DNA of 64,000 bases from Escherichia coli. GTDB lineage: Bacteria > Pseudomonadota > Gammaproteobacteria > Enterobacterales > Enterobacteriaceae. The notes under the pieces were generated by a model. That model searched no databases. It was not told the DNA's origin and was given only the letters and a program-made list of their open reading frames with translations. A program made the position numbers and the translations under genes. Of the stretch, positions 1 to 18,731 are shown one piece after another; the stretch's first letter is position 1; each line of letters starts with the position of its first letter. The stretch lies in the NCBI RefSeq assembly GCF_001677475.2, contig NZ_CP015229.1. One strand, written 5' to 3'.

Positions 1-165
1 TCATTTTGTTTTTTTAGGAATATATCAATACAAAATATCAATATAATTTCATGAAGATATTCATGTGATGGATAATATTGGGGGCTATTGTTTTATTTCG
101 ATGTATTAATATGCAAAAAAAGAGGGGATTGCCTCCCCCCTTAATTCATAAATAGTGCAATATCT

Positions 166-1368: not shown

Positions 1369-1596
1369 GGCAGTATTCCTGCAGTAATAAAAAGGAAAAA
1401 TCTCTGCCGACAACCATAACGAAGTGCACTTTATGCCTGGGGAAAAACGGCATGAAATGCCATCAGAACGGAATGAAATGCCTTAGTTCAGGAATGAATG
1501 ACGCGACAATTATTCACCAAATTTATTATTTGGTAAGTTAGCACCCACTATCGCCACAACTATTGTTATTCAATGGTTTCAATTGTGATTGTTACG

Positions 1597-2301: not shown

Positions 2302-2452
2302 GACTCCAGGGAAGAGCCGAATTCGGCAATATTATTGTCATTGTATGAAGGATATCGGGCATAGTAGCCCTGTATTAAATATTGACTTTTTCACCGATGC
2401 GTCAAGAAAAGCTGCTGAAATTTTTACGATCGGGTACATAGCGAGGGAAAGT

Positions 2453-3016
2453 ATGGAACGTTGCGGCTGGGTGAGTCAGGACCCGCTTTATATTGCCTAC
2501 CATGATAATGAATGGGGCGTGCCTGAAACTGACAGTAAAAAACTGTTCGAAATGATCTGCCTTGAAGGGCAGCAGGCTGGGTTATCGTGGATCACCGTCC
2601 TCAAAAAACGCGAAAACTATCGCGCATGCTTTCATCAGTTCGATCCGGTGAAGGTTGCCGCAATGCAGGTAGAGGATGTCGAAAGACTGGTACAGGACGC
2701 CGGGATTATCCGCCATCGCGGGAAAATTCAGGCAATCATTGGTAATGCGCGGGCGTACCTGCAAATGGAACAGAACGGCGAACCGTTTGCCGACTTTGTC
2801 TGGTCGTTTGTAAATCATCAGCCACAGGTGACACAAGCCACAACGTTGAGCGAAATCCCCACATCTACGCCCGCCTCCGACGCCCTATCTAAGGCACTGA
2901 AAAAACGTGGTTTTAAGTTTGTCGGTACCACAATCTGTTACTCCTTTATGCAGGCATGTGGGCTGGTGAATGATCATGTGGTTGGCTGCTGTTGCTATCC
3001 GGGAAATAAACCATGA
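2453..3016 (+). CDS. tag: DNA-3-methyladenine glycosylase I
   Basis: Internal ATG of ORF 2216..3016 gives a 187-aa protein (MERCGWVSQDPLYIAYHDNEWGVPE...) recognised as Tag; the longer upstream extension is not used. Confidence 0.9.
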   Translation: MERCGWVSQDPLYIAYHDNEWGVPETDSKKLFEMICLEGQQAGLSWITVLKKRENYRACFHQFDPVKVAAMQVEDVERLVQDAGIIRHRGKIQAIIGNARAYLQMEQNGEPFADFVWSFVNHQPQVTQATTLSEIPTSTPASDALSKALKKRGFKFVGTTICYSFMQACGLVNDHVVGCCCYPGNKP

Positions 3017-3453
3017 TTCGGGAAGCGCAACGTTCAGAACTCCCCGCGATCCTCGAACTGTGGCTGGAAAGTACAACCTGGGGGCATCCCTTTATAAAAG
3101 CGAATTACTGGCGTGATTGCATTCCGCTGGTGCGGGATGCGTATCTTGCCAATGCGCAAAACTGGGTCTGGGAAGAAGACGGTAAGCTTCTCGGTTTTGT
3201 CAGCATTATGGAAGGCCGATTTCTGGCAGCAATGTTTGTCGCACCGAAGGCCGTCAGACGCGGTATTGGTAAGGCGCTGATGCAATATGTGCAGCAGCGC
3301 CATCCCCATCTGATGCTGGAGGTTTATCAAAAAAATCAACCGGCGATAGATTTTTACCATGCGCAGGGTTTTCACATTGTCGATTGCGCATGGCAGGATG
3401 AAACCCAACTACCCACCTGGATTATGAGCTGGCCGGTGGATCAAACGCTGTAA
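3013..3453 (+). CDS. yiaC: GNAT-family N-acetyltransferase YiaC
   Basis: 146-aa ORF recognised as YiaC; start overlaps the tag stop by 4 nt (ATGA), suggesting translational coupling. Confidence 0.85.
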
Positions 3454-5755
3454 GTGTCAGTTCCGGACCGTTGTATTTTTCCAGCCATGCCAGCGCCGTA
3501 TTACCCGCACAGCCATTCCCCAGCCGCGAGCTGGGGAGATCTTTGGTCAGCACGTTCACTGCGCCGTTTTTACAAATACCGTCAGCGGTTAAATCCAGAT
3601 CCGGCCATGCCCCTTCGTGAATGCAAATCACGCCAGGTTTAATTCCCTCGCTAATGACTGCCCCGGCAAGAATTTGCCCGCGTGCGTTCCACAGCCGAAC
3701 AGTATCGCCATCTTGTATGCCGCGCGCCTGAGCATCGTCAGGATGAATGGTGACAGGCTCACGGTTTGCCACCGCGTACAATTCGCGCAGAGAACTGTAA
3801 TTCAGCTGGCTGTGCAGACGATGTGCCGGATGAGCAGAAAGTACCTGCAACTGTTCCGGTTCGGCATTGCCCTGCCATTCGTCCGGCTCCAGCCACATTG
3901 GATGCCCCGGGCAATCCGGATAAGCGTAATCAGCAATACGCTGCGAGAAGATTTCAATCTTACCACTGGCAGTTTTTAATGGATGCGCCTGCGGATCGCG
4001 GCGAAAATCGGCGAAGCGAATAAACCGCTCGCTGTCTGGGTTTTCCGGCATCTCAATTAACTGGTTGGCTTGCCAGAACTCAGCAAATGGCGGCAATTCA
4101 ACCTGCTGGCTTGCCCCGCGCTGCCGGGCAACGTTATAAAACGTTTCCAGCCATTGCAGCTCACTTTTTCCTTCCGTAAACCGCGCATAGCCGCCCTTCT
4201 CCCAACGTTCACTCAACTCGGCAAAGACATCAAAATCATTACGCGCTTCATAACGTGGCGGCACCACTTGTTTCATCAGCACCAGATGCTGATTGCTGTA
4301 ATCGCCGGTCATGGTGAGATCATTACGCTCAAACGAGGTGGTCGCAGGCAGAACGATATCCGCGTGTTTCGCCGCCGCCGTCCAGAAGCATTCAGAGATC
4401 ACCACCAGCTCCGGTTTTTGCCAGGCACGGATCAGGCGATTGGTATCCTGATGATGAGTAAAGTTGGCACCGCCCGCCCACCAGATAAAACGAATATCCG
4501 GGAAATGTCGGTCCATACCGTTATGTTGATATGCGCCACCGGGGTTTTCCAGTGCTTCAACAATGCGGGCAACAGGGATTTTATCCACCGCATCGGTGCC
4601 GCCAGGCAAGCTGCCCTGCATGGAAGAGAGCACCGCAGCGCGGCGAGTGGGGTTACCACCATTGGCAAAATGGTAAGAAAGTCCAAAACCGCCGCCGGGT
4701 GTGCCGATTTGCCCCAACATTGCCGCCAGCGTGACGATCATCCAGTGTTTTTGCTCACCAAACTGTTGGCGCTGCATTCCCCAGCCAGCCATCAGCATGG
4801 TAGTATTTTGATGGAAAAGAGCCGCCAGTTCGCGGATTTTCGCTGCGCCAACACCACAAATCCCTGCCGCCCATTCGGCGGTTTTCGCTATTCCGTCGCT
4901 CTCGCCCAGCAAATAAGAGGCGAAAACGTCATAACCTGTGGTGCAACGCGTCAGAAACGCTTCGTCGTGCCAGCCATTTTCCACCAGCGTATGGGCGATC
5001 CCTAGCATCAGCGCAACATCGGTGCCCATGTGCGGTGCCACCCACTCCATTTTATCGCCAAAGAAATCGACGGTTTCCGATCGCATTGGATCAATGCAGA
5101 TCAGCTTTTTCCCGCTGTCACGCAGTGCGGAAAAGTAAGAAAGCCCCTGCTCATCAGATGCATTCCACGCAATTTTCAGCGTATTGAGTGGGTTAGCACT
5201 CCACAACACCACGACATCGCTATGTTCCAGCACCAGCGGCCAACTGGTTTGCTGCTGATAGACTTCGCTGCCCCCCACGACATATGGCATGATCGCCTGT
5301 GCCGCGCCGGTCGAATAATCCCCCAGATGCCCGGTATAACCGCCTGCCAGCGCCATATAGCGTTGTAATAATGTCGAGGCCTTATGCAGCACGCCGTTTG
5401 AACGCCAGCCGTAGGAACCAGCAAAAATCGATGCCGGACCATAAGCCTCACGAATACGTTTATGTTGTTGGTGAATAAGCTCCAGCGCCTCATCCCAACT
5501 CACACGAACAAATTCATCCTGCCCACGAATGCCTTGCGGGTTTTCCGGTGACGCGAGAAAGCCTTTGCGCACCATTGGAAATCGTACCCGCGTATTGCTG
5601 TGAACCTGGTCGCGAACCGCGCTCTGCAAGGAATTTTCCATTCCTGTGGCTAACGCGCCACGTGAGCTAAACACGGTTTCGCCGTCAGTTTCAACCAGCA
5701 TGGGCCCCCAGTGGGCGGCAGTCAGAACGGAATATCGTGAGGATGAGTTGGCCAA
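3422..5755 (-). CDS. bisC: Biotin sulfoxide reductase (molybdopterin oxidoreductase)
   Basis: 777-aa ORF recognised as BisC ([26 protein letters not shown]...); 3' end overlaps the 3' end of yiaC by 32 nt, convergently. Confidence 0.9.
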
Positions 5756-5907
5756 ACCGAAGGCTCCTGAAAGGTTAGATGTATTGAGCAGTTAAATATT
5801 ACTTACAAATTTCCGAGTATTCCCAGGAATAATCTTCATGTTCACGCGGCATAATCTCCCGCCACGGAACCCGTGGCAAAGAATAAAAAGGTTATTAAGG
5901 ATTAACA

Positions 5908-6567
5908 ATGAAGAAACGTGTTTATCTTATTGCCGCCGTAGTGAGTGGCGCTCTGGCGGTATCTGGCTGCACAACTAACCCTTACACCGGCGAACGCGAA
6001 GCAGGTAAATCTGCTATCGGCGCAGGTCTGGGCTCTCTCGTTGGCGCGGGTATTGGTGCGCTCTCTTCTTCGAAGAAAGATCGCGGTAAAGGCGCGCTCA
6101 TTGGCGCAGCAGCAGGCGCGGCTCTGGGCGGCGGCGTGGGTTATTACATGGATGTGCAGGAAGCGAAGCTGCGTGACAAAATGCGCGGCACCGGTGTTAG
6201 CGTAACCCGCAGCGGGGATAACATTATCCTCAATATGCCGAACAATGTGACCTTCGACAGCAGCAGCGCGACCCTGAAACCGGCGGGCGCTAACACCCTG
6301 ACCGGCGTGGCAATGGTACTGAAAGAGTATCCGAAAACGGCGGTTAACGTGATTGGTTATACCGACAGCACGGGTGGTCACGACCTGAACATGCGTCTCT
6401 CCCAGCAGCGTGCGGATTCCGTTGCCAGCGCGTTGATCACCCAGGGCGTGGACGCCAGCCGCATCCGTACTCAGGGCCTTGGCCCGGCTAACCCAATCGC
6501 CAGCAACAGCACCGCAGAAGGTAAGGCGCAAAACCGCCGTGTAGAAATTACCTTAAGCCCGCTGTAA
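5908..6567 (+). CDS. yiaD: OmpA-domain lipoprotein YiaD
   Basis: 219 aa; lipoprotein signal peptide with lipobox (LAVSGC); glycine-rich linker; C-terminal OmpA-like peptidoglycan-binding region (...GYTDSTGGHDLNMRLSQQRADSV...). Confidence 0.9.
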   Translation: MKKRVYLIAAVVSGALAVSGCTTNPYTGEREAGKSAIGAGLGSLVGAGIGALSSSKKDRGKGALIGAAAGAALGGGVGYYMDVQEAKLRDKMRGTGVSVTRSGDNIILNMPNNVTFDSSSATLKPAGANTLTGVAMVLKEYPKTAVNVIGYTDSTGGHDLNMRLSQQRADSVASALITQGVDASRIRTQGLGPANPIASNSTAEGKAQNRRVEITLSPL

Positions 6568-6670
6568 TCCCTTTCATGCCAGGTGATGCAGAAATCACCT
6601 GGCATTCTTCAGTTTTCCTTCATCATATTTCAGGCTAAGGTGATCGCCTTATCAGTGAATGGAGAGAAGC

Positions 6671-7645
6671 ATGAAGCCGTCCGTTATCCTCTACAAAGCC
6701 TTACCTGATGATTTACTGCAACGCCTGCAAGAGCATTTCACCGTTCACCAGGTGGCAAACCTCAGCCCACAAACCGTCGATCAAAATGCAGCAATTTTTG
6801 CAGAAGCTGAAGGTTTACTGGGTTCAAACGAGAATGTAGATGCCGCATTGCTGGAAAAAATGCCGAAACTGCGTGCCACATCAACGATCTCCGTCGGCTA
6901 TGACAATTTTGATGTCGATGCGCTTACCGCCCGAAAAATTCTGCTGATGCACACGCCAACCGTATTAACAGAAACCGTCGCCGATACGCTGATGGCGCTG
7001 GTGTTGTCTACCGCTCGTCGGGTTGTGGAGGTAGCTGAACGGGTAAAAGCAGGCGAATGGACCGCGAGCATAGGCCCGGACTGGTACGGCACTGACGTTC
7101 ACCATAAAACACTGGGCATTGTCGGGATGGGACGGATCGGCATGGCGCTGGCACAACGTGCGCACTTTGGCTTCAACATGCCCATCCTCTATAACGCGCG
7201 CCGCCACCATAAAGAAGCAGAAGAACGCTTCAACGCCCGCTACTGCGATTTGGATACTCTGTTACAAGAGTCAGATTTCGTTTGCCTGATCCTGCCGTTA
7301 ACTGATGAGACGCATCATCTGTTTGGCGCAGAACAATTCGCCAAAATGAAATCCTCCGCCATTTTCATTAATGCCGGACGTGGCCCGGTGGTTGATGAAA
7401 ATGCACTGATTGCTGCATTGCAGAAAGGGGAAATTCACGCCGCCGGGCTGGATGTTTTCGAACAAGAGCCACTGTCCGAAGATTCGCCGTTGCTCTCAAT
7501 GACCAACGTCGTCGCAGTACCGCATATTGGATCTGCCACTCATGAGACGCGTTATGGCATGGCCGCCTGTGCCGTGGATAATTTGATTGATGCGTTACAA
7601 GGAAAGGTTGAGAAGAACTGTGTGAATCCGCACGTCGCGGACTAA
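6671..7645 (+). CDS. ghrB: Glyoxylate/hydroxypyruvate reductase B (2-ketoaldonate reductase)
   Basis: Internal ATG at 6671 gives 324 aa ([14 protein letters not shown]...); D-isomer 2-hydroxyacid dehydrogenase pattern with NAD-binding GxGxxG (GIVGMGRIG). Confidence 0.9.
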
Positions 7646-7694
7646 GCCGCGACTGCGTGGAGTAAAGCCCGATAATCGCTCGGGCTTTTACTCT

Positions 7695-8405
7695 TTATTG
7701 GGTTGCAGTAACTGCTGTAGTCCAGGCCTGATTAAACGCCTGATGCTGTGCCGGTAATGGCGCAATCAGTTTGTTATATTCACTTGCCTGTTGTGACGTC
7801 GGGAACTGGATGCCATTTGCTACAAAGCTCACCTGAGTACCTTGCTGAGCAATGTAGTCTCCAACCATCACCAGTTGTTGCGTGAAAGTTTGTGCCGCCG
7901 GAATCAACGGTTGCAATGCATCAGCTGGTGTCGTTACCACTTTGGTGAATGCCTGATCAAAGACCGGTTTCAAATCATCGGTCTGTTTTAGCGCAGAGTG
8001 CGCAGCATCGGCCTGCAACTTCGCATTTTGCAGTTGTTGCGCCAGCACACCTAGCGAACCGTTCATTTCACGCAGCGGACCGCTTTGCGTAACGTAATCC
8101 TGCGGTACGCGAATTGCGTTAACGCTGTCTACGACCGGGCGCAGACCGGAATCCATCGCCTGATTCACCTGCTGAGAATAACCATACAGAATCGCGTAAT
8201 CAGAGACAAAAGGACCAAACTGTTTTTTCTGATCGGCAGTCAGGGTTGGTAGACGTTCGCCGCTACGCATCACTGTATTCTGCAGGAAGTCGATAAACGC
8301 TTTACGCTGATCGCCTTCTTTATCAAAACACCCACTCAGGCTAACTACCATTAATAACGCCGCAAGAGGCGCAAACCAGCGAGAGCAGGACTTTCCTGTC
8401 GCCAT
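7695..8405 (-). CDS. yiaF: Putative inner-membrane lipoprotein YiaF
   Basis: Start placed at internal ATG 8405 (MATGKSCSRWFAPLAALLMVVSLSGC...), 236 aa with lipobox LSGC; the upstream ORF extension is not used. Confidence 0.8.
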   Translation of the reverse strand: MATGKSCSRWFAPLAALLMVVSLSGCFDKEGDQRKAFIDFLQNTVMRSGERLPTLTADQKKQFGPFVSDYAILYGYSQQVNQAMDSGLRPVVDSVNAIRVPQDYVTQSGPLREMNGSLGVLAQQLQNAKLQADAAHSALKQTDDLKPVFDQAFTKVVTTPADALQPLIPAAQTFTQQLVMVGDYIAQQGTQVSFVANGIQFPTSQQASEYNKLIAPLPAQHQAFNQAWTTAVTATQ

Positions 8406-8838
8406 TTTCTTACTCCTTTCACCCAAAAAAAGCGCACAACGACACACGCGTGTCTGACGTGACAAGGATAGTCCAGGACAGGCTTGCAGGATACCCTTTC
8501 TACGTAATCTTCCTGGTAAAATCATGGAGAAAATGAAACAAGGTTAATTTGTTGTTTCATTGTTAAAAAATGATAGTGCCGTTGCTTTTTTTGTTGCCAG
8601 AGATTTACGCCTTCTCAGAACGTTAGATTTTCGAAATCTTTACAAACCGGGAGTGGTAAGAGATATATCGGCATTTATCAGATCGTTAGGTGGCTATAAG
8701 TCACGCTAAATGACTGGCTGAATCGAATCATAGCCAGAGCATGCCCTGACTTCACCCCGCTGTGTCTGCTTTTCCCGACTATTCTTAATGAGCTTCGATG
8801 CAATTCACGATCCCGCAGTGTGATTTGAGGAGTTTTCA

Positions 8839-9129
8839 ATGGAATATAAAGATCCAATGCATGAGCTGTTGAGCAGCCTGGAACAGATTGTTTTTAAAGA
8901 TGAAACGCAGAAAATTACCCTGACGCACAGAACAACGTCCTGTACCGAAATTGAGCAGTTACGAAAAGGGACAGGGTTAAAAATCGATGATTTCGCCCGG
9001 GTTTTGGGCGTATCAGTCGCCATGGTAAAGGAATGGGAATCCAGACGCGTGAAGCCTTCAAGTGCCGAACTAAAATTGATGCGTTTGATTCAAGCCAACC
9101 CGGCATTAAGTAAGCAGTTGATGGAATAG
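8839..9129 (+). CDS. yiaG: XRE-type helix-turn-helix transcriptional regulator YiaG
   Basis: 96-aa ORF recognised as YiaG; HTH segment (IDDFARVLGVSVAMVKEWESRR). Confidence 0.85.
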   Translation: MEYKDPMHELLSSLEQIVFKDETQKITLTHRTTSCTEIEQLRKGTGLKIDDFARVLGVSVAMVKEWESRRVKPSSAELKLMRLIQANPALSKQLME

Positions 9130-9213
9130 ACTTTTATCCACTTTATTGCTGTTTACGGTCCTGATGACAGGACCGTTTTCCAACCGATTAATCATAAATA
9201 TGAAAAATAATTG

Positions 9214-9242
9214 TTGCATCACCCGCCAATGCGTGGCTTAAT
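9214..9242 (+). promoter_or_regulatory. cspA: cspA sigma70 promoter (-35 TTGCAT, -10 CTTAAT) with AT-rich UP-like region upstream
   Basis: TTGCAT at 9214..9219 and CTTAAT at 9237..9242 with 17-nt spacing; AT-rich tract at 9191..9212; placed about 160 nt upstream of the cspA ATG, matching the known long leader. Confidence 0.7.
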
Positions 9243-9250
9243 GCACATCA

Positions 9251-9409
9251 ACGGTTTGACGTACAGACCATTAAAGCAGTGTAGTAAGGCAAGTCCCTTC
9301 AAGAGTTATCGTTGATACCCCTCGTAGTGCACATTCCTTTAACGCTTCAAAATCTGTAAAGCACGCCATATCGCCGAAAGGCACACTTAATTATTAAAGG
9401 TAATACACT
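9251..9409 (+). promoter_or_regulatory. cspA: cspA long 5'UTR (cold-box, RNA thermosensor leader)
   Basis: Leader begins ACGGTTTGACGTACAGACC, containing the cold-box-like TGACGTACAGA at 9256..9266, and runs about 159 nt to the ATG; the cspA leader is an established cold-responsive RNA element. Confidence 0.75.
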
Positions 9410-9622
9410 ATGTCCGGTAAAATGACTGGTATCGTAAAATGGTTCAACGCTGACAAAGGCTTCGGCTTCATCACTCCTGACGATGGCTCTAAAGACGTGT
9501 TCGTACACTTCTCTGCTATCCAGAACGATGGTTACAAATCTCTGGACGAAGGTCAGAAAGTGTCCTTCACCATCGAAAGCGGCGCTAAAGGCCCGGCAGC
9601 TGGTAACGTAACCAGCCTGTAA
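9410..9622 (+). CDS. cspA: Major cold-shock protein CspA
   Basis: 70-aa [41 protein letters not shown]...; RNP1 motif KGFGFI and RNP2-like VFVHF. Confidence 0.97.
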
Positions 9623-9650
9623 TCTCTGCTTAAAAGCACAGAATCTAAGA

Positions 9651-9678
9651 TCCCTGCCATTTGGCGGGGATTTTTTTA
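9651..9678 (+). terminator. Rho-independent terminator of cspA
   Basis: Stem TCCCTGCC / GGCGGGGA followed by T-run TTTTTTTATT at 9671..9680. Confidence 0.8.
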
Positions 9679-9774
9679 TTTGTTTTTCAGGAAATAAATA
9701 ATCGATCGCGTAGTAAAATCTATTATTATTTTTGTGAAAAATAAATTTGGGTGCAATGAGAATGCGCAACGCCG

Positions 9775-9801
9775 TAAGAAAGGCGGGAATAACTTCCCGC
9801 C
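9775..9801 (-). terminator. 3' stem-loop / terminator downstream of hokA
   Basis: On the minus strand, stem TTCCCGCC / GGCGGGAA (plus coordinates 9782..9801) is followed by TTTCTT; lies 8 nt after the hokA stop. Confidence 0.5.
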
Positions 9802-9809
9802 GAAGACTC

Positions 9810-9962
9810 TTACTCTTTTAAATTGCAGGCTAAAAATGCCGCCAGCTCATAACTCCCCTGTTTAATATGCAATTCACACAGTGAATCTCTTATCATCCAG
9901 GTGAAAAATAAAAGCGTGAAACAAATCACTATTAAAGAAAGCAATCTATATTTCTGCGGCAT
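9810..9962 (-). CDS. hokA: Hok-family type I toxin (small membrane peptide), HokA-like
   Basis: 50-aa product MPQKYRLLSLIVICFTLLFFTWMIRDSLCELHIKQGSYELAAFLACNLKE: single transmembrane helix plus conserved Cys, characteristic of Hok/Gef peptides. The same frame extends upstream to an ATG at 10022 (70 codons). No IS element interrupts the locus. Confidence 0.8.
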   Translation of the reverse strand: MPQKYRLLSLIVICFTLLFFTWMIRDSLCELHIKQGSYELAAFLACNLKE

Positions 9963-10284
9963 TCCCAGCCCCCTGTGTTGATTTCCAACGAGTAAGAGGC
10001 TAACCTTATGGTGTCTATGCATAGAGGGGCCTCACTTTGATTTATAGTCAGGTGGGGCTTTTCTCTGTCTGCCTTTCGGTGAATACCTGAGACAAACAGT
10101 CTCAAGCACCCGTGGCTATTCTAGCTTAATAAGTTTGTTTCTTCTCCTTGATATAATCCTAAAAAAATCTCATAAAATTAATATATGAGATAATCTTTAT
10201 TCAGCAGAAGATTATTAAAGGTTGCTGTATTATTTAGCGATAAAAAAAGCCTGCCAGATGGCAGGCTTTTTAATAACGGCGTTA

Positions 10285-12354
10285 TTACTGCAACAGCGAA
10301 ATATCCGCAACGCGCAGGAACAGTTCGCGCAGTTTCTCCAGCATGGTCAGACGGTTGATACGCAATTCTTTGTCATCAACCATGACCATCACTTTATCGA
10401 AGAAGGCATCGACCGGTTCACGCAGCTCTGCCAGTTCGACCAGCGCATCCTGGTAACGACCTTCCGCAAAGTACGGCTCCAGCTTGTCACGTAGCACCAC
10501 AACCTGCATCGCCAGTTTAATTTCTTCCGGCTCTTTCAGAGTAGAGGCATTCACGCGATCGCTCAGCACTTCGTCAGATTTCGCCAGGATGTTAGATACA
10601 CGTTTGTTCGCCGCCGCCAGTGCTGCAGCTGCTTCCAGGGTACGGAAGTGCGATACCGCTTTCATGCGGGCATCGAAATCAGCCGGACGAGTCGGACGAC
10701 GCGCCAGTACCGCCTGGATGGTGTCAACGGTATAACCTTCGTCCTGATACCAGGCGCGGAAGCGACCGAGCATAAAGTCGATAACATCATCAACTACGTT
10801 GGCATTAGTCAGCTTATCGCCATACAGACGCACCGCTTCTTCGGTCAGCGTTTGCAGATCAAGGTTGAGGTTCTTCTCAACGATAATTCGCAGCACGCCA
10901 AGTGCGGCACGACGCAGCGCAAACGGGTCTTTGTCGCCTTTCGGATGCTGACCGATACCGAAGATACCCGCCAGAGTATCCATCTTATCAGCAATCGCCA
11001 GCGCACAAGCTACCGGGTTGGACGGCAGGTCATCACCGGCAAAGCGCGGCTGATACTGCTCATTCAGCGCGACGGCTACGTCTTCCGCTTCGCCATCGTG
11101 ACGCGCGTAGTGCATCCCCATAACGCCTTGGGTGTCGGTGAACTCGAAGACCATGTTGGTCATCAGGTCACACTTAGACAGCAGGCCCGCACGGGTTGCG
11201 TGGTTAACGTCAGCGCCAATCTGTTCGGCGATCCAGCCAGCCAGCGCCTGGATGCGGTCAGTCTTGTCACGCAGCGTACCCAGCTGTTGCTGGAACAGCA
11301 CGGTTTGCAGGCGCGGCAGGTTATCTTCCAGACGTTTTTTACGGTCGGTGTTGAAGAAGAACTCGGCATCAGCCAGACGTGGACGAACGACTTTCTCGTT
11401 ACCAGAGATAATTTGCTGCGGATCTTTCGATTCGATGTTGGCAACGAAGATAAAGTTCGGCAGCAGTTTGCCGTCGTTCGCATACACCGGGAAGTATTTC
11501 TGGTCACCTTTCATGGTGTAAACCAGCGCTTCAGACGGCACCGCGAGGAATTTCTCTTCGAATTTCGCGGTCAGAACGACCGGCCACTCCACCAGCGAAG
11601 CGACTTCTTCCAGCAGGCTTTCGCTTAAGTCAGCGTTACCGCCAATCTTACGCGCTGCTTCTTCGGCATCGGCTTTAATCTTCGCCTTACGTTCTTCGTA
11701 ATCGGCGATGACTTTCCCGCGCTCACGCAGAATTTCTGGATATTGATCGGCGTTGTCGATAGTGAATTCCGGCTCGCCCATAAAGCGGTGGCCGCGAATC
11801 ACGCGATCGGACTGAATGCCCAGAATGGTTGCCGGAATGACTTTGTCGCCCAGCAGCAGGGTCACGGTGTGCACCGGACGCACGAAGTGCACGTCGCTTG
11901 CACCCCAGCGCATCAGTTTCGGGATCGGCAGTTTCGCCAGCGAAGTCGCAACCATATTCGGCAGCAGTGCTTCAGTGCTTTCGCCCTTCACATGGGCGCG
12001 ATACAGCAGCCATTCGCCTTTATCGGTAGTCAGACGCTCAGCCTGGTCAACGGTAATACCGCAACCACGCGCCCAACCTTCTGCCGCTTTGCTCGGTTTG
12101 CCTTCAGCGTCGAACGCCTGGGCAATCGCCGGGCCGCGTTTTTCGATTTCACGATCCGGTTGCGCTTCCGCCAGGTTAGCTACTTTCAGCGCCAGACGAC
12201 GCGGAGCAGCAAACCATTGAACGGTGCCGTGTGCGAGGCCAGCGTTATCCAGCTCCGCAGTAAAGTTCGCAGCAAAGGACTCAGCCAGGCTGCGCAGTGC
12301 TTTTGGTGGCAGCTCTTCAGTGCCGATTTCCACCAGAAAAGTTTTCTCAGACAT
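10285..12354 (-). CDS. glyS: Glycine--tRNA ligase beta subunit
   Basis: 689-aa ORF recognised as GlyS ([23 protein letters not shown]...); immediately downstream of glyQ on the same strand. Confidence 0.97.
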
Positions 12355-12363
12355 AGCCGCCTC

Positions 12364-13275
12364 TTACTTATCTTTGTTGCACATCGGGAAGCCGAGGGCT
12401 TCACGGGAAGCGTAGTATGCTTCTGCCACTGCTTTGGTCAGGGTGCGAATGCGCAGAATGTAGCGCTGACGCTCGGTGACGGAGATGGCTTTACGCGCAT
12501 CCAGCAGGTTGAAGCTGTGGGCGGCTTTCAGAATACGCTCGTAGGCTGGCAGCGGCAGCGGATTTTCCAGCGCCAGCAACTGCTGCGCTTCTTTCTCGTA
12601 TTGCTCGAAGCAGGTGAACAGGAAATCCACATCCGCGTATTCGAAGTTGTAAGTGGACTGCTCCACTTCGTTCTGATGGAACACGTCGCCGTAGGTGGTT
12701 TTACCCAGCGGGCCGTCGCTCCAGACCAGGTCGTAAACGCTGTCTACGCCCTGAATGTACATGGCCAGACGTTCCAGACCGTAAGTGATCTCGCCGGTAA
12801 CCGGTTTACACTCCAGACCACCAACCTGCTGGAAGTAAGTGAACTGCGTCACTTCCATGCCGTTTAGCCACACTTCCCAGCCCAGCCCCCAGGCACCCAG
12901 CGTCGGGTTTTCCCAGTTATCTTCCACGAAACGGATGTCGTGAATAGTCGGGTCCATGCCCAGCTCTTTCAGAGAACCGAGGTACAGCTCCTGAATATTG
13001 TCCGGCGATGGCTTAATGACCACCTGGAACTGATAGTAGTGCTGTAAACGGTTGGGGTTTTCGCCGTAGCGACCATCGGTCGGGCGACGAGAAGGCTGAA
13101 CATAAGCAGCCGCCATCGGTTCTGGCCCCAGCGCGCGCAGACAGGTCATTGGGTGAGAGGTTCCCGCGCCGACTTCCATGTCCAATGGTTGAACAATGGT
13201 GCAGCCCTGGCGAGCCCAGTAATCCTGTAAGGTCAGGATCAAGCCCTGGAAGGTCCTGGTATCAAACTTTTGCAT
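12364..13275 (-). CDS. glyQ: Glycine--tRNA ligase alpha subunit
   Basis: 303-aa ORF recognised as GlyQ ([25 protein letters not shown]...); 9-nt spacer to glyS. Confidence 0.97.
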
Positions 13276-13369
13276 ATTATTTCGTGCTGGATACGTGTGG
13301 ATTTAAAGGAAGGGATCAGTATACCCGCTGGATGGAAGATATACAGTACGAAACGGGAAAAAGCAGGGC

Positions 13370-13678
13370 TTAACGCATGGAAAGATGCAAAAAATGGCCA
13401 TCTGCGTCAAAAGAACAGACAAACTGCTCTTTACGGAAGGTATAACCGCGCATTTCGTAGCTTCCCTGGAACTGTTCAAATGCGGTGACGTCGATTTTTT
13501 GCTCGCCGGTGTTATAACGTTTCGCCGCCTGATCCTTGCATAACGCTTCCATATTCAACGAACGCAGAGGATCAACCTTTACCCGTTGTGCTTTCTGCAC
13601 GGGTGACGGTGTAGAACAACCCACTAGCACCATAAGCGCCATAAGCGCCATTGCCGGAAAGAAAGAGTTCATCATCAT
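13370..13678 (-). CDS. ysaB: Uncharacterised lipoprotein YsaB
   Basis: About 100 aa; signal peptide with lipobox LVGC. Three consecutive ATG codons at 13670..13678 make the exact start ambiguous. Confidence 0.75.
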   Translation of the reverse strand: MMMNSFFPAMALMALMVLVGCSTPSPVQKAQRVKVDPLRSLNMEALCKDQAAKRYNTGEQKIDVTAFEQFQGSYEMRGYTFRKEQFVCSFDADGHFLHLSMR

Positions 13679-13852
13679 TAAATTACCGTCTGGTTTGCAG
13701 GTGAGTCTTATTATTTATATCGGTATAGTGGCTGATATCTTACGAACTTCCTTAAGCCTCTATAAGCTGTAGTGATAAAACTCAGATTATTCCAGTGCGC
13801 CAACTGAATGATTTATCGGTCAGACTTTTTTTAACCAGATACAGAGACACAG

Positions 13853-14848
13853 ATGCAGCCCAAAATTTACTGGATTGATAACCTGCGAGGGATAGCGTGT
13901 TTAATGGTGGTGATGATTCACACCACTACCTGGTATGTGACCAATGCTCATAGTGTTAGCCCCGTCTCCTGGGATATCGCCAATGTTCTGAACTCTGCCT
14001 CTCGTGTCAGCGTGCCGCTATTTTTCATGATTTCCGGCTATCTCTTTTTTGGCGAACGCAGCGCCCAGCCGCGCCATTTCTTGCGTATCGGCTTATGTCT
14101 GTTTTTTTATAGCGCAATCGCGCTGCTCTACATTGCACTGTTTACCTCCATTAATGTGGAGTTAGCGCTGAAAAACCTGCTGCAAAAGCCAGTGTTTTAC
14201 CACTTATGGTTTTTCTTCGCGATTGCGGTGATTTATCTGGTTTCACCGTTGATTCAGGTGAAGAACGTCGGCGGAAAAATGTTGCTGGTGCTAATGGTGG
14301 TGATTGGTATCATCGCTAACCCAAACACCGTGCCGCAGAAAATCGACGGTTTTGAATGGCTGCCAATTAACTTATATATCAATGGCGATACTTTTTACTA
14401 CATCCTGTATGGCATGTTGGGCCGAGCTATAGGAATGATGGACACACAGCATAAAGCACTGTCGTGGGTGAGCGCCGCACTGTTTGCAACGGGGGTTTTT
14501 ATTATCTCTCGCGGGACATTATATGAATTGCAGTGGCGCGGAAATTTTGCCGATACCTGGTATCTTTACTGTGGGCCGATGGTTTTTATCTGCGCAATCG
14601 CGCTATTGACTCTGGTTAAAAACACGCTGGATACGCGTACCATTCGCGGACTTGGCTTAATCTCCCGCCATTCGTTGGGTATATACGGATTCCACGCCTT
14701 GATTATCCATGCGCTGCGCACCCGGGGAATTGAGCTTAAAAATTGGCCAATACTGGATATTATTTGGATCTTTTGCGCGACGTTGGCAGCGAGTTTGTTA
14801 CTTTCTATGCTGGTACAACGAATCGACAGAAACAGATTAGTGAGTTAA
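13853..14848 (+). CDS. wecH: Membrane O-acyltransferase (acyltransferase-3 family), WecH/YiaH
   Basis: 331 aa, polytopic hydrophobic protein recognised as YiaH/WecH ([25 protein letters not shown]...). Confidence 0.85.
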
Positions 14849-14889
14849 GTAAAAGCCCGGTCACATTGGACTGACCGGGCTTACGTGAG

Positions 14890-15330
14890 TTATTCGCTGT
14901 ATTCTTCCGGGGTAACCTGTGTTTCTTTTGGTGGGTTTATTCCGGCATCACGAATATTTTTCTGCACCGCTACTGCACCAAACAAGCTTAAGAAGAAAGC
15001 CAGTCCATAAAAACCTTTTTCGCTGAGTAATAATGTCGCATTCCACAGACCTACCATCAGTAATGCAACAGAGATAATAAAGACAGTCAGGCAGGTCATA
15101 TAATAAATGGAAGTGGTCGGTATGCCTTCATACTTGTCCCGAACGGTCTTTTGATAAGACGCCGCAGAAAACAGTCCTAATACCAGTACGGCAAAATAAT
15201 ATCCTTTTTCATTTAACTGCATCTCTGCATTCCATAGCCCTAACAGATAGGTAACGATACCACCAACGAGAGCTATCCATGACACAATACTAAAGGCCGG
15301 TGAATAGGTTGATATTTTGTTGTCCATCAC
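14890..15330 (-). CDS. yiaA: Inner-membrane protein YiaA (YiaA/YiaB family)
   Basis: 146-aa ORF with four hydrophobic helices arranged as two internally repeated halves (...[19 protein letters not shown]... / ...[19 protein letters not shown]...). Confidence 0.8.
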
Positions 15331-15372
15331 AGTATTCCTTTCATTCCTGAATGTGTAAGAGCTTTATGTTGC

Positions 15373-15714
15373 TCATGCCGAGCGAAACAAACGCATTTGA
15401 CCAAACAAGCAGACAAAAAAGGCGATGGGATAGATCACCATTTCATAAGCATTGATAGGTGCATTTAAAACACCGATAAACAAGAGACCGATAGTGATTA
15501 ACGCAACTAACTGGCAAATATGGATAAAAAAATCATCCAGTTGCCCGAGTTTTTCTGCGCGAAGATATGCATAGTTGCCAAAAGTTGCCGTCATTAACAC
15601 GCCAAGAAAATAGCCTTTTCCACTTAACAATGGGCATGAGATCCATAGCCCAACCAGATAAACCAGCGCCCCGACAACAAATAATAGTTTTGCCACAGTC
15701 TTTGAGGTTTTCAT
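15373..15714 (-). CDS. yiaB: Inner-membrane protein YiaB (YiaA/YiaB family)
   Basis: Start at internal ATG 15714 (MKTSKTVAKLLFVVGALVYLVGLWI...), 113 aa, with GGAG Shine-Dalgarno about 6 nt upstream; paralogous to the adjacent yiaA. Confidence 0.8.
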   Translation of the reverse strand: MKTSKTVAKLLFVVGALVYLVGLWISCPLLSGKGYFLGVLMTATFGNYAYLRAEKLGQLDDFFIHICQLVALITIGLLFIGVLNAPINAYEMVIYPIAFFVCLFGQMRLFRSA

Positions 15715-15882
15715 AACGATCTCCATATCTACCAGCGATACATTACGAGTAACCAACGAAAGACAAAACTGAAAAATGCCATTAACAAATGATTTTCAGA
15801 ATAAATTCATACTAAATATTAATTAATTACTGAGATGTATAGATGTGAATTATCCCCCACCCGGTCAGGCAGGGGATAACGT

Positions 15883-17337
15883 TTACGCCATTAATGGCAG
15901 AAGTTGCTGATAGAGGCGACGGAACGTTTCTCGTCGTGGCTGATAAGCGGCATAACGCTGCGCATCAGGTAGATGCGACTGTTCTAACGGTAGCTGCGGC
16001 AACAACTCAATGAGCGATTTCTCTGGATTCGCCGCAATCTGCGCCAGCCTTGCTGCGCCCAGTGCTGGCCCCACATCCCCCCCCGTACGGTAATCGAGCT
16101 GCTGACCGCTGATATCCGCCAGCATCTGACGCCAGTACTCACTACGCGCCCCGCCACCAATCAACGTAACACTTTGCGGTTTAATGCCGCAGGCATGCAC
16201 GACATCCATGCCATCTGCCAGCGCATAACCCACGCCTTCCAGCACTGCTCGCGCCAGTTCATTGGGGCCATGTTGATGAGTCAAACCAAAGAAAACCCCC
16301 TTCGCCTGGGGATTATTGTGTGGTGTACGCTCGCCGGAAAGATAAGGCAGAAACCAAACTGGCTCGGCACTTTCATCAGCCTGTTGAGCAGCCGCGATTA
16401 AAGCTGGGACATTGTTCAGGCCCGTTAATTTCGCGGCCCAATCCAGACACGACGCTGCACTCAGCATTACAGACATTAAATGCCAACGCTGCGGTAGCGC
16501 ATGGCAAAAGCTGTGTACGGCGCTTTCTGGCTTGCTTAAAAACCCTTCGCTAACAGCAAAATAGACCCCCGACGTCCCCAGCGATAACATTGCCTGATTA
16601 GCATCAACCATTCCCACACCAACCGCACCAGCTGCATTGTCGCCACCGCCTGCGACAACTGGCACCGTCGCCATCCCCCACGCTTTCGCAACTTCAGGTA
16701 ACAAAGCACCAGTAATTTCGCTGCCTTCGTATAATGCGGGCATCTGGTCACGAGATAAGTGGCAAGCCTGCAGCATGACGTCACTCCAGTCACGCTTTGC
16801 GACATCCAGCCACATGGTGCCAGCTGCGTCAGACATATCGCTGGCAAACTCCCCCGTCATACGCAGACGCAAGTAATCTTTCGGTAATAATACTTTGTCG
16901 ATTTGACGGAATATCTCCGGCTCATGCCGCTGAACCCATAGCAATTTAGGCGCAGTAAATCCGGGCATCATCAGGTTGCCGGTAATCACCCGCGATTGCG
17001 GAACTCGCGCTTCCAGCAAAGTGCACTCTTGCGCACAGCGCCCGTCGTTCCACAAAATGGCAGGGCGCAATACCCGTTGTTGAGCATCCAGTAAGGTTGC
17101 ACCGTGCATCTGGCCGGCAATACCCAATGCTTTAACGTCCTGCAGAGAATGCTGATCGCCCAGGGCTTTCATTGCGCGATCAGTTGCCTGCCACCACTGT
17201 TCCGGGTCTTGTTCCGACCAGAGTGGATGCGGGCGCGAAACGGTCAGCTTTTCCGTTTGCGAAGCAACCACCTCACCCTGCTCGTTGAGCAAAATAACTT
17301 TTACGCCCGAGGTGCCAAGATCTATCCCGATATACAT
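15883..17337 (-). CDS. xylB: Xylulokinase
   Basis: 484 aa; FGGY sugar-kinase N-terminus MYIGIDLGTSGVKVILL; directly downstream of xylA. Confidence 0.97.
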   Translation of the reverse strand: MYIGIDLGTSGVKVILLNEQGEVVASQTEKLTVSRPHPLWSEQDPEQWWQATDRAMKALGDQHSLQDVKALGIAGQMHGATLLDAQQRVLRPAILWNDGRCAQECTLLEARVPQSRVITGNLMMPGFTAPKLLWVQRHEPEIFRQIDKVLLPKDYLRLRMTGEFASDMSDAAGTMWLDVAKRDWSDVMLQACHLSRDQMPALYEGSEITGALLPEVAKAWGMATVPVVAGGGDNAAGAVGVGMVDANQAMLSLGTSGVYFAVSEGFLSKPESAVHSFCHALPQRWHLMSVMLSAASCLDWAAKLTGLNNVPALIAAAQQADESAEPVWFLPYLSGERTPHNNPQAKGVFFGLTHQHGPNELARAVLEGVGYALADGMDVVHACGIKPQSVTLIGGGARSEYWRQMLADISGQQLDYRTGGDVGPALGAARLAQIAANPEKSLIELLPQLPLEQSHLPDAQRYAAYQPRRETFRRLYQQLLPLMA

Positions 17338-17408
17338 ATCGATCGTTCCTTAAAAAAATGCCCGGTATCGCTACCGATAACCGGGCCAACGGACTGCACA
17401 GTTAGCCG

Positions 17409-18731
17409 TTATTTGTCGAACAGATAATGGTTTACCAGATTTTCCAGTTGTTCCTGGCGACCACTCTGATGCACCGGAGACAAATTGTGTTCCTGAGCAT
17501 ATTTGGCTAAATCTGCCAGTGACATTTGGCCTTTCAGGATTTGCTGGCCTAATTCGCTATTCCAGCCGGAATAACGCTGCGCGATGCGTTTATCCAGCTC
17601 GCCATCTTCAATCATGCGTGCTGCAATTTTCAGCGCCAACGCCATCGTATCCATCGCGCCGATATGACCGTAAAACAGATCATATTTATCAGTACTTTGA
17701 CGACGTACTTTGGCATCGAAGTTCAGACCACCGGTGGTGAAACCGCCTGCTTTGAGAATTTCATACATCACCAGCGCATTCTCTTCCACACTGTTCGGGA
17801 ACTGGTCGGTGTCCCAGCCCAGTTGCGCATCGCCACGGTTGGCGTCGACAGAACCGAACAGGCCAAGCGCAATGGCGGTGGCTATTTCATGATGGAAAGA
17901 GTGACCTGCCAGCGTCGCGTGGTTAGCTTCAATGTTCAGTTTAATCTCTTTTTCCAGACCAAACTGTTTCAGGAAGCCATAGACCGTCGCGGCATCGTAA
18001 TCATATTGATGTTTGGTCGGTTCTTGCGGTTTCGGTTCGATAAGCAACGTGCCCTGGAAACCGATTTTATGTTTATGCTCAACCACCATCTGCATAAAGC
18101 GGCCCAGCTGTTCACGCTCCTGACGCAAGTCGGTATTTAACAGCGTTTCGTAACCTTCACGACCGCCCCACAGGACATAGTTTTCACCGCCCAATTTATG
18201 GGTTGCTTCCATCGCTGTAACAACTTGCGTTGCCGCCCAACTGAAGACTTCAGGATCTGGGTTCGTCGCCGCACCCGCGCCATAGCGAGGGTTTGTAAAG
18301 CAGTTAGCGGTTCCCCACAGCAGCTTCACGCCGCTCTCTTCTTGCTTGCCTGCCAGGACATCAACCATTTGCGCAAAATTATTGATGTACTCTTTTAACG
18401 ACGCGCCCTCAGGGGAAACATCCACATCGTGGAAGCAATAAAATGGCACATGTAACTTGTGGAAAAACTCAAATGCGACATCTGCTTTACGCTTCGCCAA
18501 CGCCAGTGCCTCACCAGGCTGCTGCCACGGACGATTAAACGCCCCCACACCAAACATGTCCGCTCCGTTCCAGCAGAAGGTGTGCCAGTAGCAGGCGGCA
18601 AAACGCAAGTGCTCTTCCATACGCTTACCCAACACCAGTTCGTCGGGATTGTAGTGACGGAATGCTAACGGGTTTGAGGATTTTGAGCCTTCATAACGAA
18701 CGCGATCGAGCTGGTCAAAATAGGCTTGCAT
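17409..18731 (-). CDS. xylA: Xylose isomerase
   Basis: Start at ATG 18731 ([28 protein letters not shown]...), 440 aa, recognised as XylA. Confidence 0.97.

What the first reader, a model, noticed from the sequence alone, without database searches (positions are those of the whole stretch)
9775..10140. Apparently intact hokA type I toxin locus next to cspA, without the IS150 copy present in K-12
The 50-codon ORF encodes a typical Hok/Gef membrane toxin. In K-12, as I recall, this locus is disrupted by IS150 (insJK) between cspA and glyS; here no transposase ORF or IS terminal repeats are visible across the 660-bp cspA-glyS spacer, so the locus may be functional. An in-frame upstream ATG (10022) extends the ORF to 70 codons; whether that is a mok-like leader frame cannot be decided from sequence alone. 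An antisense Sok-type RNA would be expected on the plus strand around 10000..10100.
Basis: partly seen in the sequence, partly recalled or inferred. Interest (0 to 1): 0.45.

Follow-up and report, generated by a model that had tools for sequence, protein, structure and literature searches.

The report
Intact hokA/mokA/sokA toxin–antitoxin locus
This is the ordinary, uninterrupted form of the well-known chromosomal hokA type I toxin–antitoxin locus, carried by about half of sequenced E. coli genomes; the IS150-broken copy in K-12 is the derived form.

Summary

**The gene.** The minus strand carries a 50-codon hokA gene at 9962..9810. It matches the NCBIfam HokA equivalog at 131.9 bits and Pfam HOK_GEF at E 2.9e-23. 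It is 48/50 identical to K-12 HokA.

**Family RNA elements, all present:**
- a -10 box TAGAAT and a +1 at 10111
- a tac 5' end that pairs with an fbi element at 9761..9749 in the full-length fold, and with ucb once the 3' end is trimmed
- a 3' stem-loop at 9801..9782
- a leader that matches Rfam RF01794 at 120 bits

**The upstream ATG.** The ATG at 10022 aligns with the mok start codon of plasmid R1. It opens an in-frame 70-codon ORF in all eight hokA-clade sequences compared, so it is mokA.

**The antisense RNA.** A SokA-like RNA (5' tail plus hairpin) is predicted on the plus strand at about 10012-10068. Its promoter is placed only by homology.

**IS150.** No IS150 end occurs anywhere in the window. 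The leader is uninterrupted in 2800 of 5426 complete E. coli genomes.

**Prior knowledge.** Intact hokA loci are already published for E. coli C and NRG857c. The E. coli C locus is reported to give no post-segregational killing.

The parts
10118..10123 (-). hokA promoter -10 box TAGAAT, 6 nt upstream of the inferred +1. No recognisable -35.
   Evidence: It aligns with the R1 -10 box TATGAT and with TAGAAT in Klebsiella, Kluyvera and Citrobacter hokA loci. The consensus scan did not report it because there is no -35. Placement is by homology.
9746..10111 (-). hokA/mokA mRNA from the inferred +1 (10111) to just past the fbi element. The true 3' end of the primary transcript is not determined.
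   Evidence: MFE is -139.4 kcal/mol with z -7.1. On 21 aligned hok mRNAs the fold is 74.8% paired, against 38-47% when partners are slid, and 44 pairs show changes on both sides. The +1 is placed by alignment with R1 numbering, which matches PMC9841398 (mok AUG at nt 116-118).
9960..10111 (-). hok mRNA 5' leader, matching the Rfam family named 'sok'.
   Evidence: RF01794 scores 120.2 bits, E 7.9e-27, over the full model 1-157. In an R1-type locus the same model also hits the hok sense strand.
10100..10111 (-). tac (translational activator) element, mRNA nt 1-12, GGGUGCUUGAGA.
   Evidence: It pairs with 9749-9761 in every full-length fold and with 10054-10060 in the 3'-truncated fold.
10054..10060 (-). 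ucb (upstream complementary box / anti-SD), AAGCCCC, mRNA nt 52-58.
   Evidence: It pairs with tac nt 1-8 in the truncated fold. That helix is 93% paired across 21 loci but does not vary.
10030..10033 (-). mok Shine-Dalgarno GAGG (mRNA nt 79-82).
   Evidence: It aligns with the R1 mok SD GAGG, whose G105/A106 positions were mutated in PMC9841398.
9810..10022 (-). mokA reading frame, 70 codons, in frame with hokA.
   Evidence: List of ORFs. The start codon sits in the same alignment column as the R1 mok ATG, and the ORF is an in-frame 70 codons in all 8 hokA-clade loci.
9969..9974 (-). hokA Shine-Dalgarno AGGGGG.
   Evidence: Read directly from the sequence, with 6 nt between it and the ATG. 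The aligned position is GGAGG in the other loci.
9810..9962 (-). hokA toxin gene, 50 codons plus stop. Cys29 and Cys46 are both encoded.
   Evidence: Pfam PF01848. NCBIfam HokA equivalog. 48/50 identical to K-12 HokA, differing at E36G and K47N. 40% identical to R1 Hok.
9782..9801 (-). GC-rich 3' stem-loop just after the stop codon. It is homologous to the stem-loop that ends the processed, active hok mRNA.
   Evidence: The terminator-like scan reports 8 pairs, 6 of them G-C. Across 21 loci the helix is 91.5% paired and 6 of 8 pairs change on both sides.
9749..9761 (-). fbi (fold-back inhibitory) element, UCUCAUUGCACCC.
   Evidence: It pairs with mRNA nt 1-12, with a duplex energy of -18.9 kcal/mol. 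The helix is 88% paired across 21 loci and 4 of 11 pairs change on both sides.
9978..10006 (+). Predicted sokA promoter: -35 TTGATT (9978-9983), 17-nt spacer, -10 TAACCT (10001-10006).
   Evidence: The placement rests on my recollection of where the R1 Sok promoter lies (TTGCGC, 17 nt, TATCCT), transferred through the alignment. The -35 complement AATCAA is present in all 8 hokA-clade rows. The site falls below the threshold of the consensus scan. Inferred, not shown.
10012..10068 (+). Predicted SokA antisense RNA: a short single-stranded 5' tail complementary to the mok start region, then one long hairpin ending in a U-rich run.
   Evidence: The fold gives -24.7 to -25 kcal/mol, z -3.7 to -4.8. 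It is the complement of the Rfam-matched leader. The ends are inferred and no expression data exist.

Best explanation
The cspA-glyS spacer holds a complete, uninterrupted hokA/mokA/sokA locus. [quoted passage not shown]

**Likely mechanism, by homology with plasmid R1 hok/sok:**
1. A weak promoter (-10 at 10118-10123) makes a very stable, tightly folded minus-strand mRNA starting at 10111.
2. In the full-length RNA the 5' end (tac) pairs with the 3' fbi element (9749-9761). This keeps the mok ribosome-binding site closed.
3. Slow 3' trimming back to the stem-loop at 9801-9782 removes fbi.
4. tac then pairs with ucb (10054-10060), and the mok start region opens.
5. Ribosomes translating mokA from 10022 run through the hokA ribosome-binding site and allow hokA translation. 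HokA is a 50-aa inner-membrane toxin.
6. A short, unstable plus-strand RNA, SokA (about 10012-10068), pairs with the mok start region of the processed mRNA and triggers its destruction. Toxin is therefore made only if SokA disappears.

**Shown here:** every sequence and structure element, and their conservation and covariation.

**Inferred:** the transcripts, the processing, the SokA ends and promoter, the RNase III cleavage and the toxicity.
For: - **Toxin identity.** Pfam HOK_GEF E 2.9e-23. NCBIfam HokA equivalog 131.9 bits against a cut-off of 89. 96% identical to K-12 HokA.
- **Leader.** Rfam RF01794 at 120 bits.
- **Element-by-element alignment.** The locus aligns with R1-type hok/sok and with Klebsiella hokA.
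- **The structural switch.** The minimum-energy fold of the full-length RNA pairs nt 1-12 with nt 351-363. The fold of the truncated RNA pairs nt 1-8 with nt 52-58.
- **Fold strength.** z-score -7.1.
- **Comparative support.** The structure is 74.8% paired, against 38-47% for slid controls. Compensatory changes occur in the tac/fbi helix (4 of 11 pairs), the 5' hairpin (4 of 10) and the 3' stem-loop (6 of 8).
- **mok.** The start codon is conserved and the frame stays open past the hok start.
- **SokA.** The candidate folds as a tail plus a hairpin.
- **No IS150.**
- **Published toxicity.** HokA is reported to be toxic on overexpression (bioRxiv 10.1101/2025.08.07.668861).
Against: - The consensus scan reports neither the hokA nor the sokA promoter. 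The hokA promoter has no -35, and the sokA -10 (TAACCT) matches only 3 of 6 consensus positions.
- No canonical terminator follows fbi. Klebsiella hokA and R1 (from my own knowledge) both have one. The primary 3' end is therefore unknown.
- The tac/ucb helix is invariant, so comparison neither supports nor contradicts it.
- The intact hokA locus of E. coli C is reported to give no post-segregational killing and no activation by rifampicin (bioRxiv 10.1101/2025.08.07.668861, citing Pedersen & Gerdes 1999). The physiological output of such loci is unproven.
Confidence: 0.9

Rival explanations
1. The locus is intact by sequence but physiologically silent. It is transcribed weakly, or kept permanently repressed, and gives no killing phenotype. 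On this view it is a conserved relic or serves some other role, and it is not an active addiction or stress module.
For: - E. coli C hokA, K-12 hokB and ECOR24 hokC are reported to give no post-segregational killing and no rifampicin activation (bioRxiv 10.1101/2025.08.07.668861).
- The hokA promoter lacks a -35.
- About half of E. coli genomes tolerate loss of the leader to IS150.
Against: - All regulatory RNA elements are kept, with compensatory changes, across Escherichia, Klebsiella, Kluyvera and Citrobacter. This argues for continued selection on regulated expression.
- HokA is toxic when expressed.
- R1 hok is toxic from a single chromosomal copy once Sok is removed (PMC9841398).
Confidence: 0.4
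2. The 70-codon in-frame ORF is itself the main product. The toxin would then be an N-terminally extended HokA (a MokA-HokA read-through protein), not a separately initiated 50-aa peptide.
For: - mok is in frame with hok in all 8 hokA-clade loci.
- Many public annotations call the 70-aa ORF.
Against: - A purine-rich Shine-Dalgarno lies just upstream of the internal ATG and is conserved.
- In R1-type and some Rouxiella loci mok is in another frame, and in Serratia it stops before hok. The extension is therefore dispensable in the family.
- The ST131 allele has a 1-nt deletion that shifts mok out of frame with hok.
- The NCBIfam HokA equivalog covers only the 50 residues.
Confidence: 0.1
3. The hairpin at 9801-9782 followed by TTTCTT is the real transcription terminator. 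The mRNA would then never contain fbi, and the locus would be controlled by SokA alone.
For: The terminator-like scan flags this hairpin. No canonical terminator lies downstream of fbi in this spacer.
Against: - The tac/fbi complement is kept, with compensatory changes, in 21 loci.
- The same hairpin in R1 is internal to the primary transcript and marks the processed 3' end (PMC9841398).
- The U-run after the hairpin is short and interrupted.
Confidence: 0.08

Closest known systems
hokA/mokA/sokA of E. coli K-12 (IS150-disrupted)
   Same: It lies at the same chromosomal position between cspA and glyS. HokA is 48/50 identical. The 3' UTR, fbi element and promoter-proximal leader are nearly identical.
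   Different: In K-12, IS150 sits between window-equivalents 9994 and 10034. There is no target duplication, and about 39 bp are missing. The lost segment includes the mok SD, the mok ATG, the Sok target and the predicted sokA -10 and +1. The window has none of this.
Intact hokA loci of other E. coli strains (E. coli C, AIEC NRG857c)
   Same: These are the same IS-free arrangement. The leader is uninterrupted in 2800 of 5426 complete genomes, and in some it is 100% identical over 152 nt, for example ATCC 11775 and Nissle 1917. The published descriptions are in PMC7232551 and bioRxiv 10.1101/2025.08.07.668861.
   Different: Only allelic differences. This window carries the less common allele of the mok-start/Sok-target loop. 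It also carries HokA G36 and N47.
hok/mok/sok (parB) of plasmid R1
   Same: The order of elements is the same: -10, tac, ucb, mok SD and ATG, Sok target, hok SD and ATG, 3' stem-loop, fbi. The predicted full-length versus truncated refolding is also the same.
   Different: - Hok is only 40% identical.
- The R1 leader is about 26 nt longer.
- R1 mok is in the +1 frame relative to hok, whereas here it is in frame.
- R1 has a terminator hairpin after fbi (my own knowledge, not tested here).
- R1 gives post-segregational killing, whereas chromosomal hokA reportedly does not.
hokA of Klebsiella, Kluyvera and Citrobacter
   Same: These are orthologous loci with the same tac sequence, an in-frame 70-codon mok and 68-74% identical HokA (34-37 of 50 residues). 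Of these, only the K. pneumoniae locus (L004) was checked for its neighbours; it lies next to glyS.
   Different: In the K. pneumoniae locus the neighbour on the other side is an ABC-F gene, not cspA, and a canonical terminator follows fbi.

Membership tests
[quoted passage not shown] | Small hydrophobic Hok/Gef toxin ORF of about 50 aa | tested here: met
   Pfam PF01848, E 2.9e-23. NCBIfam HokA equivalog at 131.9 bits against a cut-off of 89.
[quoted passage not shown] | Two conserved cysteines (29 and 46) that form the disulfide needed for toxicity | tested here: met
   Both are encoded directly (C29, C46). Their role is taken from bioRxiv 10.1101/2025.08.07.668861.
[quoted passage not shown] | mok leader ORF that starts upstream of hok and is translated through the hok initiation region | tested here: met
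   The ATG at 10022 sits in the same column as the R1 mok ATG. The ORF is open for 70 codons. ATG is conserved in 20 of 21 loci.
[quoted passage not shown] | Conserved structured 5' leader of the hok mRNA | tested here: met
   Rfam RF01794 at 120.2 bits against a gathering score of 59.
[quoted passage not shown] | Long-range tac/fbi pairing of the 5' and 3' ends in the full-length mRNA | tested here: met
   The MFE fold pairs nt 1-12 with nt 351-363. The helix is 88% paired across 21 loci, with 4 of 11 pairs compensatory.
[quoted passage not shown] | Alternative tac/ucb pairing after 3' truncation, which opens the mok SD | tested here: inconclusive
   The truncated RNA is predicted to form it, and the helix is 93% paired. 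It is invariant, so there is no covariation for or against.
[quoted passage not shown] | Stable 3' stem-loop after the stop codon that ends the processed mRNA | tested here: met
   Hairpin at 9801-9782. 91.5% paired, with 6 of 8 pairs compensatory.
[quoted passage not shown] | Short cis-encoded antisense Sok RNA with its own promoter, complementary to the mok start region | tested here: inconclusive
   A tail-plus-hairpin RNA is predicted at 10012-10068. The promoter is placed by homology only and is not found by the consensus scan. There are no expression data.
[quoted passage not shown] | Toxicity of Hok and its repression by Sok; post-segregational killing | not testable with these tools
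   The literature reports that HokA is toxic on overexpression and that the E. coli C hokA locus gives no post-segregational killing.
K-12-type IS150-disrupted hokA allele | IS150 inserted in the hokA leader between the hokA ORF and its promoter | tested here: not met
   No IS150 end occurs in the 64-kb window. The spacer is colinear over all 662 bp with 2830 genomes. K-12 and ST131 carry the IS.

The most novel reading that the evidence does not exclude
IS150 has entered the same roughly 45-bp stretch of the hokA leader at least three separate times:
- the K-12 type, with a 39-bp loss and no target duplication;
- an ST131 type at the CTT triplet 10035-10037, in one orientation;
- an ST131 type at the same triplet, in the opposite orientation.

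An unrelated IS (ISKpn28) lies just upstream of hokA in a Klebsiella strain, although that junction sequence was not read.

The mok-start/Sok-target loop also exists as two sharply different alleles, with 6 differences in 14 nt, inside otherwise near-identical DNA.

Together these would mean that intact alleles such as this one are active and costly. They would be repeatedly selected for inactivation, and the Sok/target recognition would be under diversifying selection. The alternative is that the leader is simply an IS target hot spot.
Probability: 0.2. Interest if true: 0.35.

Novelty: already known. Interest (0 to 1): 0.1.

Why it matters
This adds little that is new. hokA is a named gene with its own NCBI equivalog model, and intact hokA loci in non-K-12 strains have been described and tested.

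The practical value is for annotation:
- The locus should be annotated as hokA plus mokA plus sokA, and the mRNA should extend to the fbi element at 9749-9761.
- The Rfam 'sok' hit marks the hok leader strand, not the strand of the antisense RNA.

The side observations on recurrent IS150 insertion and on the two Sok-target alleles could feed a population-genetic test of whether chromosomal hok loci are under selection.

Tried and rejected
- **Consensus promoter scan.** It found neither the hokA nor the sokA promoter. Both were placed by homology and are marked as inferred.
- **Literature.** A search for hokA plus IS150 gave no relevant paper. The Fozo/Storz review id I guessed is not held. The full text of Pedersen & Gerdes 1999 is not in the library, so its findings are cited second-hand from PMC7232551 and bioRxiv 10.1101/2025.08.07.668861.
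- **Junction queries for counting IS150 alleles.** They are confounded because nearby pieces are joined into one place. One search's count mixes the K-12 type with the direct-orientation ST131 type. I therefore give approximate proportions, cross-checked.
- **First automatic mok detection.** It took the last ATG before the pattern and mis-assigned frames in loci that have ATGCATG. I redid it by alignment column.
- **Chance ORF.** Considered and rejected, given the Pfam, NCBIfam and Rfam scores.
- **Hidden IS remnant in the spacer.** Considered and rejected.
- **Repeats in the spacer.** They are the two flanking terminators and the long-range helices of the hok mRNA. They are not mobile-element ends.

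Full report
**1. What is in the sequence**

- cspA occupies 9410-9622 on the plus strand. The Rfam cspA thermoregulator covers 9250-9677 at 501 bits.
- glyS occupies 12354-10285 on the minus strand. The spacer between them is 662 bp.
- On the minus strand a 50-codon ORF runs 9962..9810. An in-frame ATG at 10022 extends it to 70 codons.
- The ORF is a Hok/Gef toxin:
  - Pfam HOK_GEF scores E 2.9e-23.
  - The NCBIfam equivalog 'type I toxin-antitoxin system toxin HokA' scores 131.9 bits against a curated cut-off of 89.
  - It is 48/50 identical to K-12 HokA, differing at E36G and K47N, and 40% identical to R1 Hok.

**2. No IS150**

- The spacer has no large ORF.
- A search for the IS150 terminal repeat with up to 3 mismatches finds nothing in the whole 64-kb window.
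- The repeats in the spacer are the cspA and glyS terminators and the internal helices of the hok mRNA.
- The complete spacer is colinear with 2830 of 5426 complete E. coli genomes. The 152-nt leader is uninterrupted in 2800 of them.

**3. Anatomy by homology**

I recalled the R1 parB sequence from memory. It matched plasmid records at 100% identity, and I used one of those records as the R1-type reference.

The alignment of the window with that reference and with a Klebsiella hokA locus shows the same order of elements:
- the -10 box (TAGAAT at 10123..10118, against TATGAT in R1);
- the +1 at 10111 (GGGUGCUUGAG, against GGCGCUUGAGG in R1);
- the mok SD (GAGG at 10033..10030);
- the mok ATG (10022);
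- the invariant UAGCCUCUUAC box;
- the hok SD and the hok ATG (9962);
- the GC-rich stem-loop after the stop codon (9801..9782);
- the 3' complement of the 5' end (9761..9749).

With the R1 +1 placed this way, the R1 mok AUG falls at nt 116-118. This is exactly the numbering used in PMC9841398 (T117, G118), which validates the register.

Rfam RF01794 matches 10111..9960 at 120 bits. The same model hits the hok sense strand in the R1-type locus. The Rfam family therefore describes the hok leader, and the real antisense RNA is its complement.

**4. RNA structure**

- The 366-nt RNA from 10111 to 9746 folds at -139.4 kcal/mol, z -7.1.
- In every full-length version tested, nt 1-12 pair with nt 351-363. 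This is the tac/fbi pairing.
- When the RNA is cut just after the 9801-9782 stem-loop, nt 1-8 pair instead with nt 52-58. This is the tac/ucb pairing. It is the two-state switch described for R1 hok mRNA (PMC9841398).

To test the fold by comparison, I scanned one genome per species for the conserved box CATNAGNNTAGCCTCTTAC. The scan returned 99 stretches of DNA, and 60 pattern matches had a Hok ORF downstream. I aligned 21 mRNAs:
- 8 from the hokA clade (Escherichia, Klebsiella, Kluyvera, Citrobacter);
- 8 from Rouxiella, Serratia and Mixta;
- 5 of the R1 type.

The window's own fold, projected on that alignment, gives these figures:
- 74.8% of cells are paired, against 38-47% when the partners are slid by 1-3 columns.
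- The tac/fbi helix is 88% paired, with 4 of 11 pairs changed on both sides.
- The 5' hairpin is 93% paired, with 4 of 10 pairs changed on both sides.
- The 3' stem-loop is 91.5% paired, with 6 of 8 pairs changed on both sides.

Per-locus duplex predictions show tac and fbi changing together between clades:

| Clade | tac | fbi |
|---|---|---|
| hokA clade | GGGUGCUUGAGA | UCUCAAUGCACCC |
| Rouxiella/Serratia/Mixta | GGGUGCUCUGGAUC | GGAUCCAUGAGCACCC |
| R1 type | GGCGCUU | GAAGCGCC |

The tac/ucb helix is 93% paired but invariant.

**5. The upstream ATG is mokA**

- The ATG at 10022 lies in the alignment column of the R1 mok start. That column holds ATG in 20 of 21 loci and TTG in one.
- In all eight hokA-clade loci the ORF from that ATG is 70 codons long and in frame with hok.
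- In R1-type loci it is also 70 codons in four of the five sequences (49 in the fifth), but in the +1 frame.
- In Serratia it stops before the hok start.
- In the ST131 allele a 1-nt deletion puts it out of frame with hok.

The conserved property is therefore translation from this ATG towards the hok initiation region, not the Mok peptide itself. This agrees with the R1 genetics (PMC9841398).

**6. SokA**

From my own knowledge of R1, the Sok promoter is TTGCGC, 17 nt, TATCCT on the antisense strand. The aligned window sequence gives -35 TTGATT (9978-9983), a 17-nt spacer and -10 TAACCT (10001-10006).

The RNA starting about 7 nt downstream folds as a short 5' tail plus one long hairpin that ends in a U-rich run. 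The fold energy is -25 kcal/mol, z -3.7 to -4.8.

The consensus scan does not report this promoter, and I have no expression data. SokA is therefore predicted, not shown.

**7. Comparison with the broken alleles**

- **K-12 type.** The hokA side ends at window-equivalent 9994 and the glyS side resumes at about 10034. There is no target-site duplication. About 39 bp are lost, including the mok SD, the mok ATG, the Sok target and the sokA -10 and +1.
- **ST131 type.** IS150 sits at the CTT triplet 10035-10037 with a 3-bp duplication. Different isolates carry it in opposite orientations.
- **Approximate proportions among 5426 complete genomes**:
  - about 2800 intact;
  - about 1650 lacking the segment 9986-10037;
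  - about 1000 with the insertion at 10037.
- **Klebsiella.** One strain has ISKpn28 just upstream of hokA.

The window carries the intact form, which is the majority state and presumably the ancestral one.

**8. What is known**

- PMC7232551 states that the K-12 hok loci are non-functional through insertion elements, point mutations or rearrangement (Pedersen & Gerdes 1999). It also states that NRG857c has intact, IS-free homologues, including hokA.
- bioRxiv 10.1101/2025.08.07.668861 states that hokA from E. coli C could not mediate post-segregational killing and was not activated by rifampicin. It also states that HokA is toxic when overexpressed and already encodes both cysteines.

**9. 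Verdict**

The finding is correct, ordinary and already described. The remaining uncertainty is physiological: whether this intact locus ever releases toxin. It is not a question of what the locus is.

Two features stay unresolved. The primary 3' end is unknown, because no canonical terminator follows fbi here, unlike in Klebsiella and, from my own knowledge, R1. The true SokA ends are also unknown.

**10. Source of the window**

The first 20 kb are at most 98.4% identical to any of the 5426 complete E. coli genomes. The best matches are O157:H7 and O55:H7. The source is therefore an Escherichia or Shigella lineage not closely represented in that collection.

Noticed in passing
window 9960-10111 (minus); L005 200-376 (plus): The Rfam family RF01794, named 'sok antitoxin', matches the hok-mRNA sense strand both here and in an R1-type locus. 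The model describes the hok 5' leader from +1 to the hok AUG, not the antisense RNA. The strand of a hit should not be read as the strand of Sok.
   Followed up: yes
window-equivalents 9994-10037; L002 3360-3380 and 4800-4830; L003 3405-3420 and 4850-4862; L006 1865-1885: IS150 has entered the hokA leader in at least three configurations. The K-12 type has a 39-bp loss and no target duplication. The ST131 type sits at the CTT triplet 10035-10037 with a 3-bp duplication and is found in both orientations. About 48% of complete E. coli genomes carry one of these. A Klebsiella pneumoniae strain has ISKpn28 just upstream of hokA (L007).
   Followed up: partly
window 10013-10028: The mok-start/Sok-target loop has two alleles. 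The 52-nt segment 9986-10037 is at least 95% identical in about 1325 genomes but only 80-90% identical in 2297. Against the ST131 allele there are 6 differences within 14 nt, three of them in the predicted single-stranded 5' tail of SokA. The flanking DNA is much more conserved (96-99.5% over the whole spacer). The window carries the less common allele.
   Followed up: partly
window 9762-9821 (plus): The small plus-strand ORF annotated as ysaE in K-12 overlaps the 3' end of hokA. It is 19 aa here, against 23 aa in K-12 and in the closest genome. The premature TAA at 9819-9821 comes from a change that is synonymous in hokA (Leu48, TTG to TTA).
   Followed up: yes
window 1-20000: The best identity to any of the 5426 complete RefSeq E. 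coli genomes is only 98.3-98.4%, with O157:H7 and O55:H7 strains. The window therefore comes from an Escherichia or Shigella lineage without a close complete E. coli genome in that collection.
   Followed up: no
window 9410-9622: RefSeq/PGAP records label the gene at this position 'cspE' (WP_000014594.1). By its position, its match to the Rfam cspA thermoregulator (501 bits) and, from my own knowledge, its sequence, it is cspA.
   Followed up: no
window 9678-9746: An AT-rich imperfect inverted repeat (29-nt arms, 79% complementary) lies between the fbi element and the cspA terminator. No canonical terminator follows fbi in this spacer, whereas Klebsiella hokA has one. The 3' end of the primary hokA transcript is therefore unclear.
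   Followed up: partly
L030 4436-4860; L031 4399-4820: An R1-identical hok/mok lies on contigs of about 5 kb labelled as an Oscillibacter MAG and as Streptomyces morookaense. This is most likely contamination by an enterobacterial plasmid or a vector.
   Followed up: no
L018 1466-5886; L026 1028-2169; L064 2771-3745: Tandem arrays of hok loci occur in other genera: six copies in Photorhabdus thracensis, three in Rouxiella aceris and three in Serratia inhibens. In Rouxiella the frame of mok relative to hok differs between adjacent copies.
   Followed up: partly
window 28951-28993 (minus): An Rfam ES036 (CssrF) sRNA match scores 38.9 bits, just above the gathering score of 37.6.
   Followed up: no
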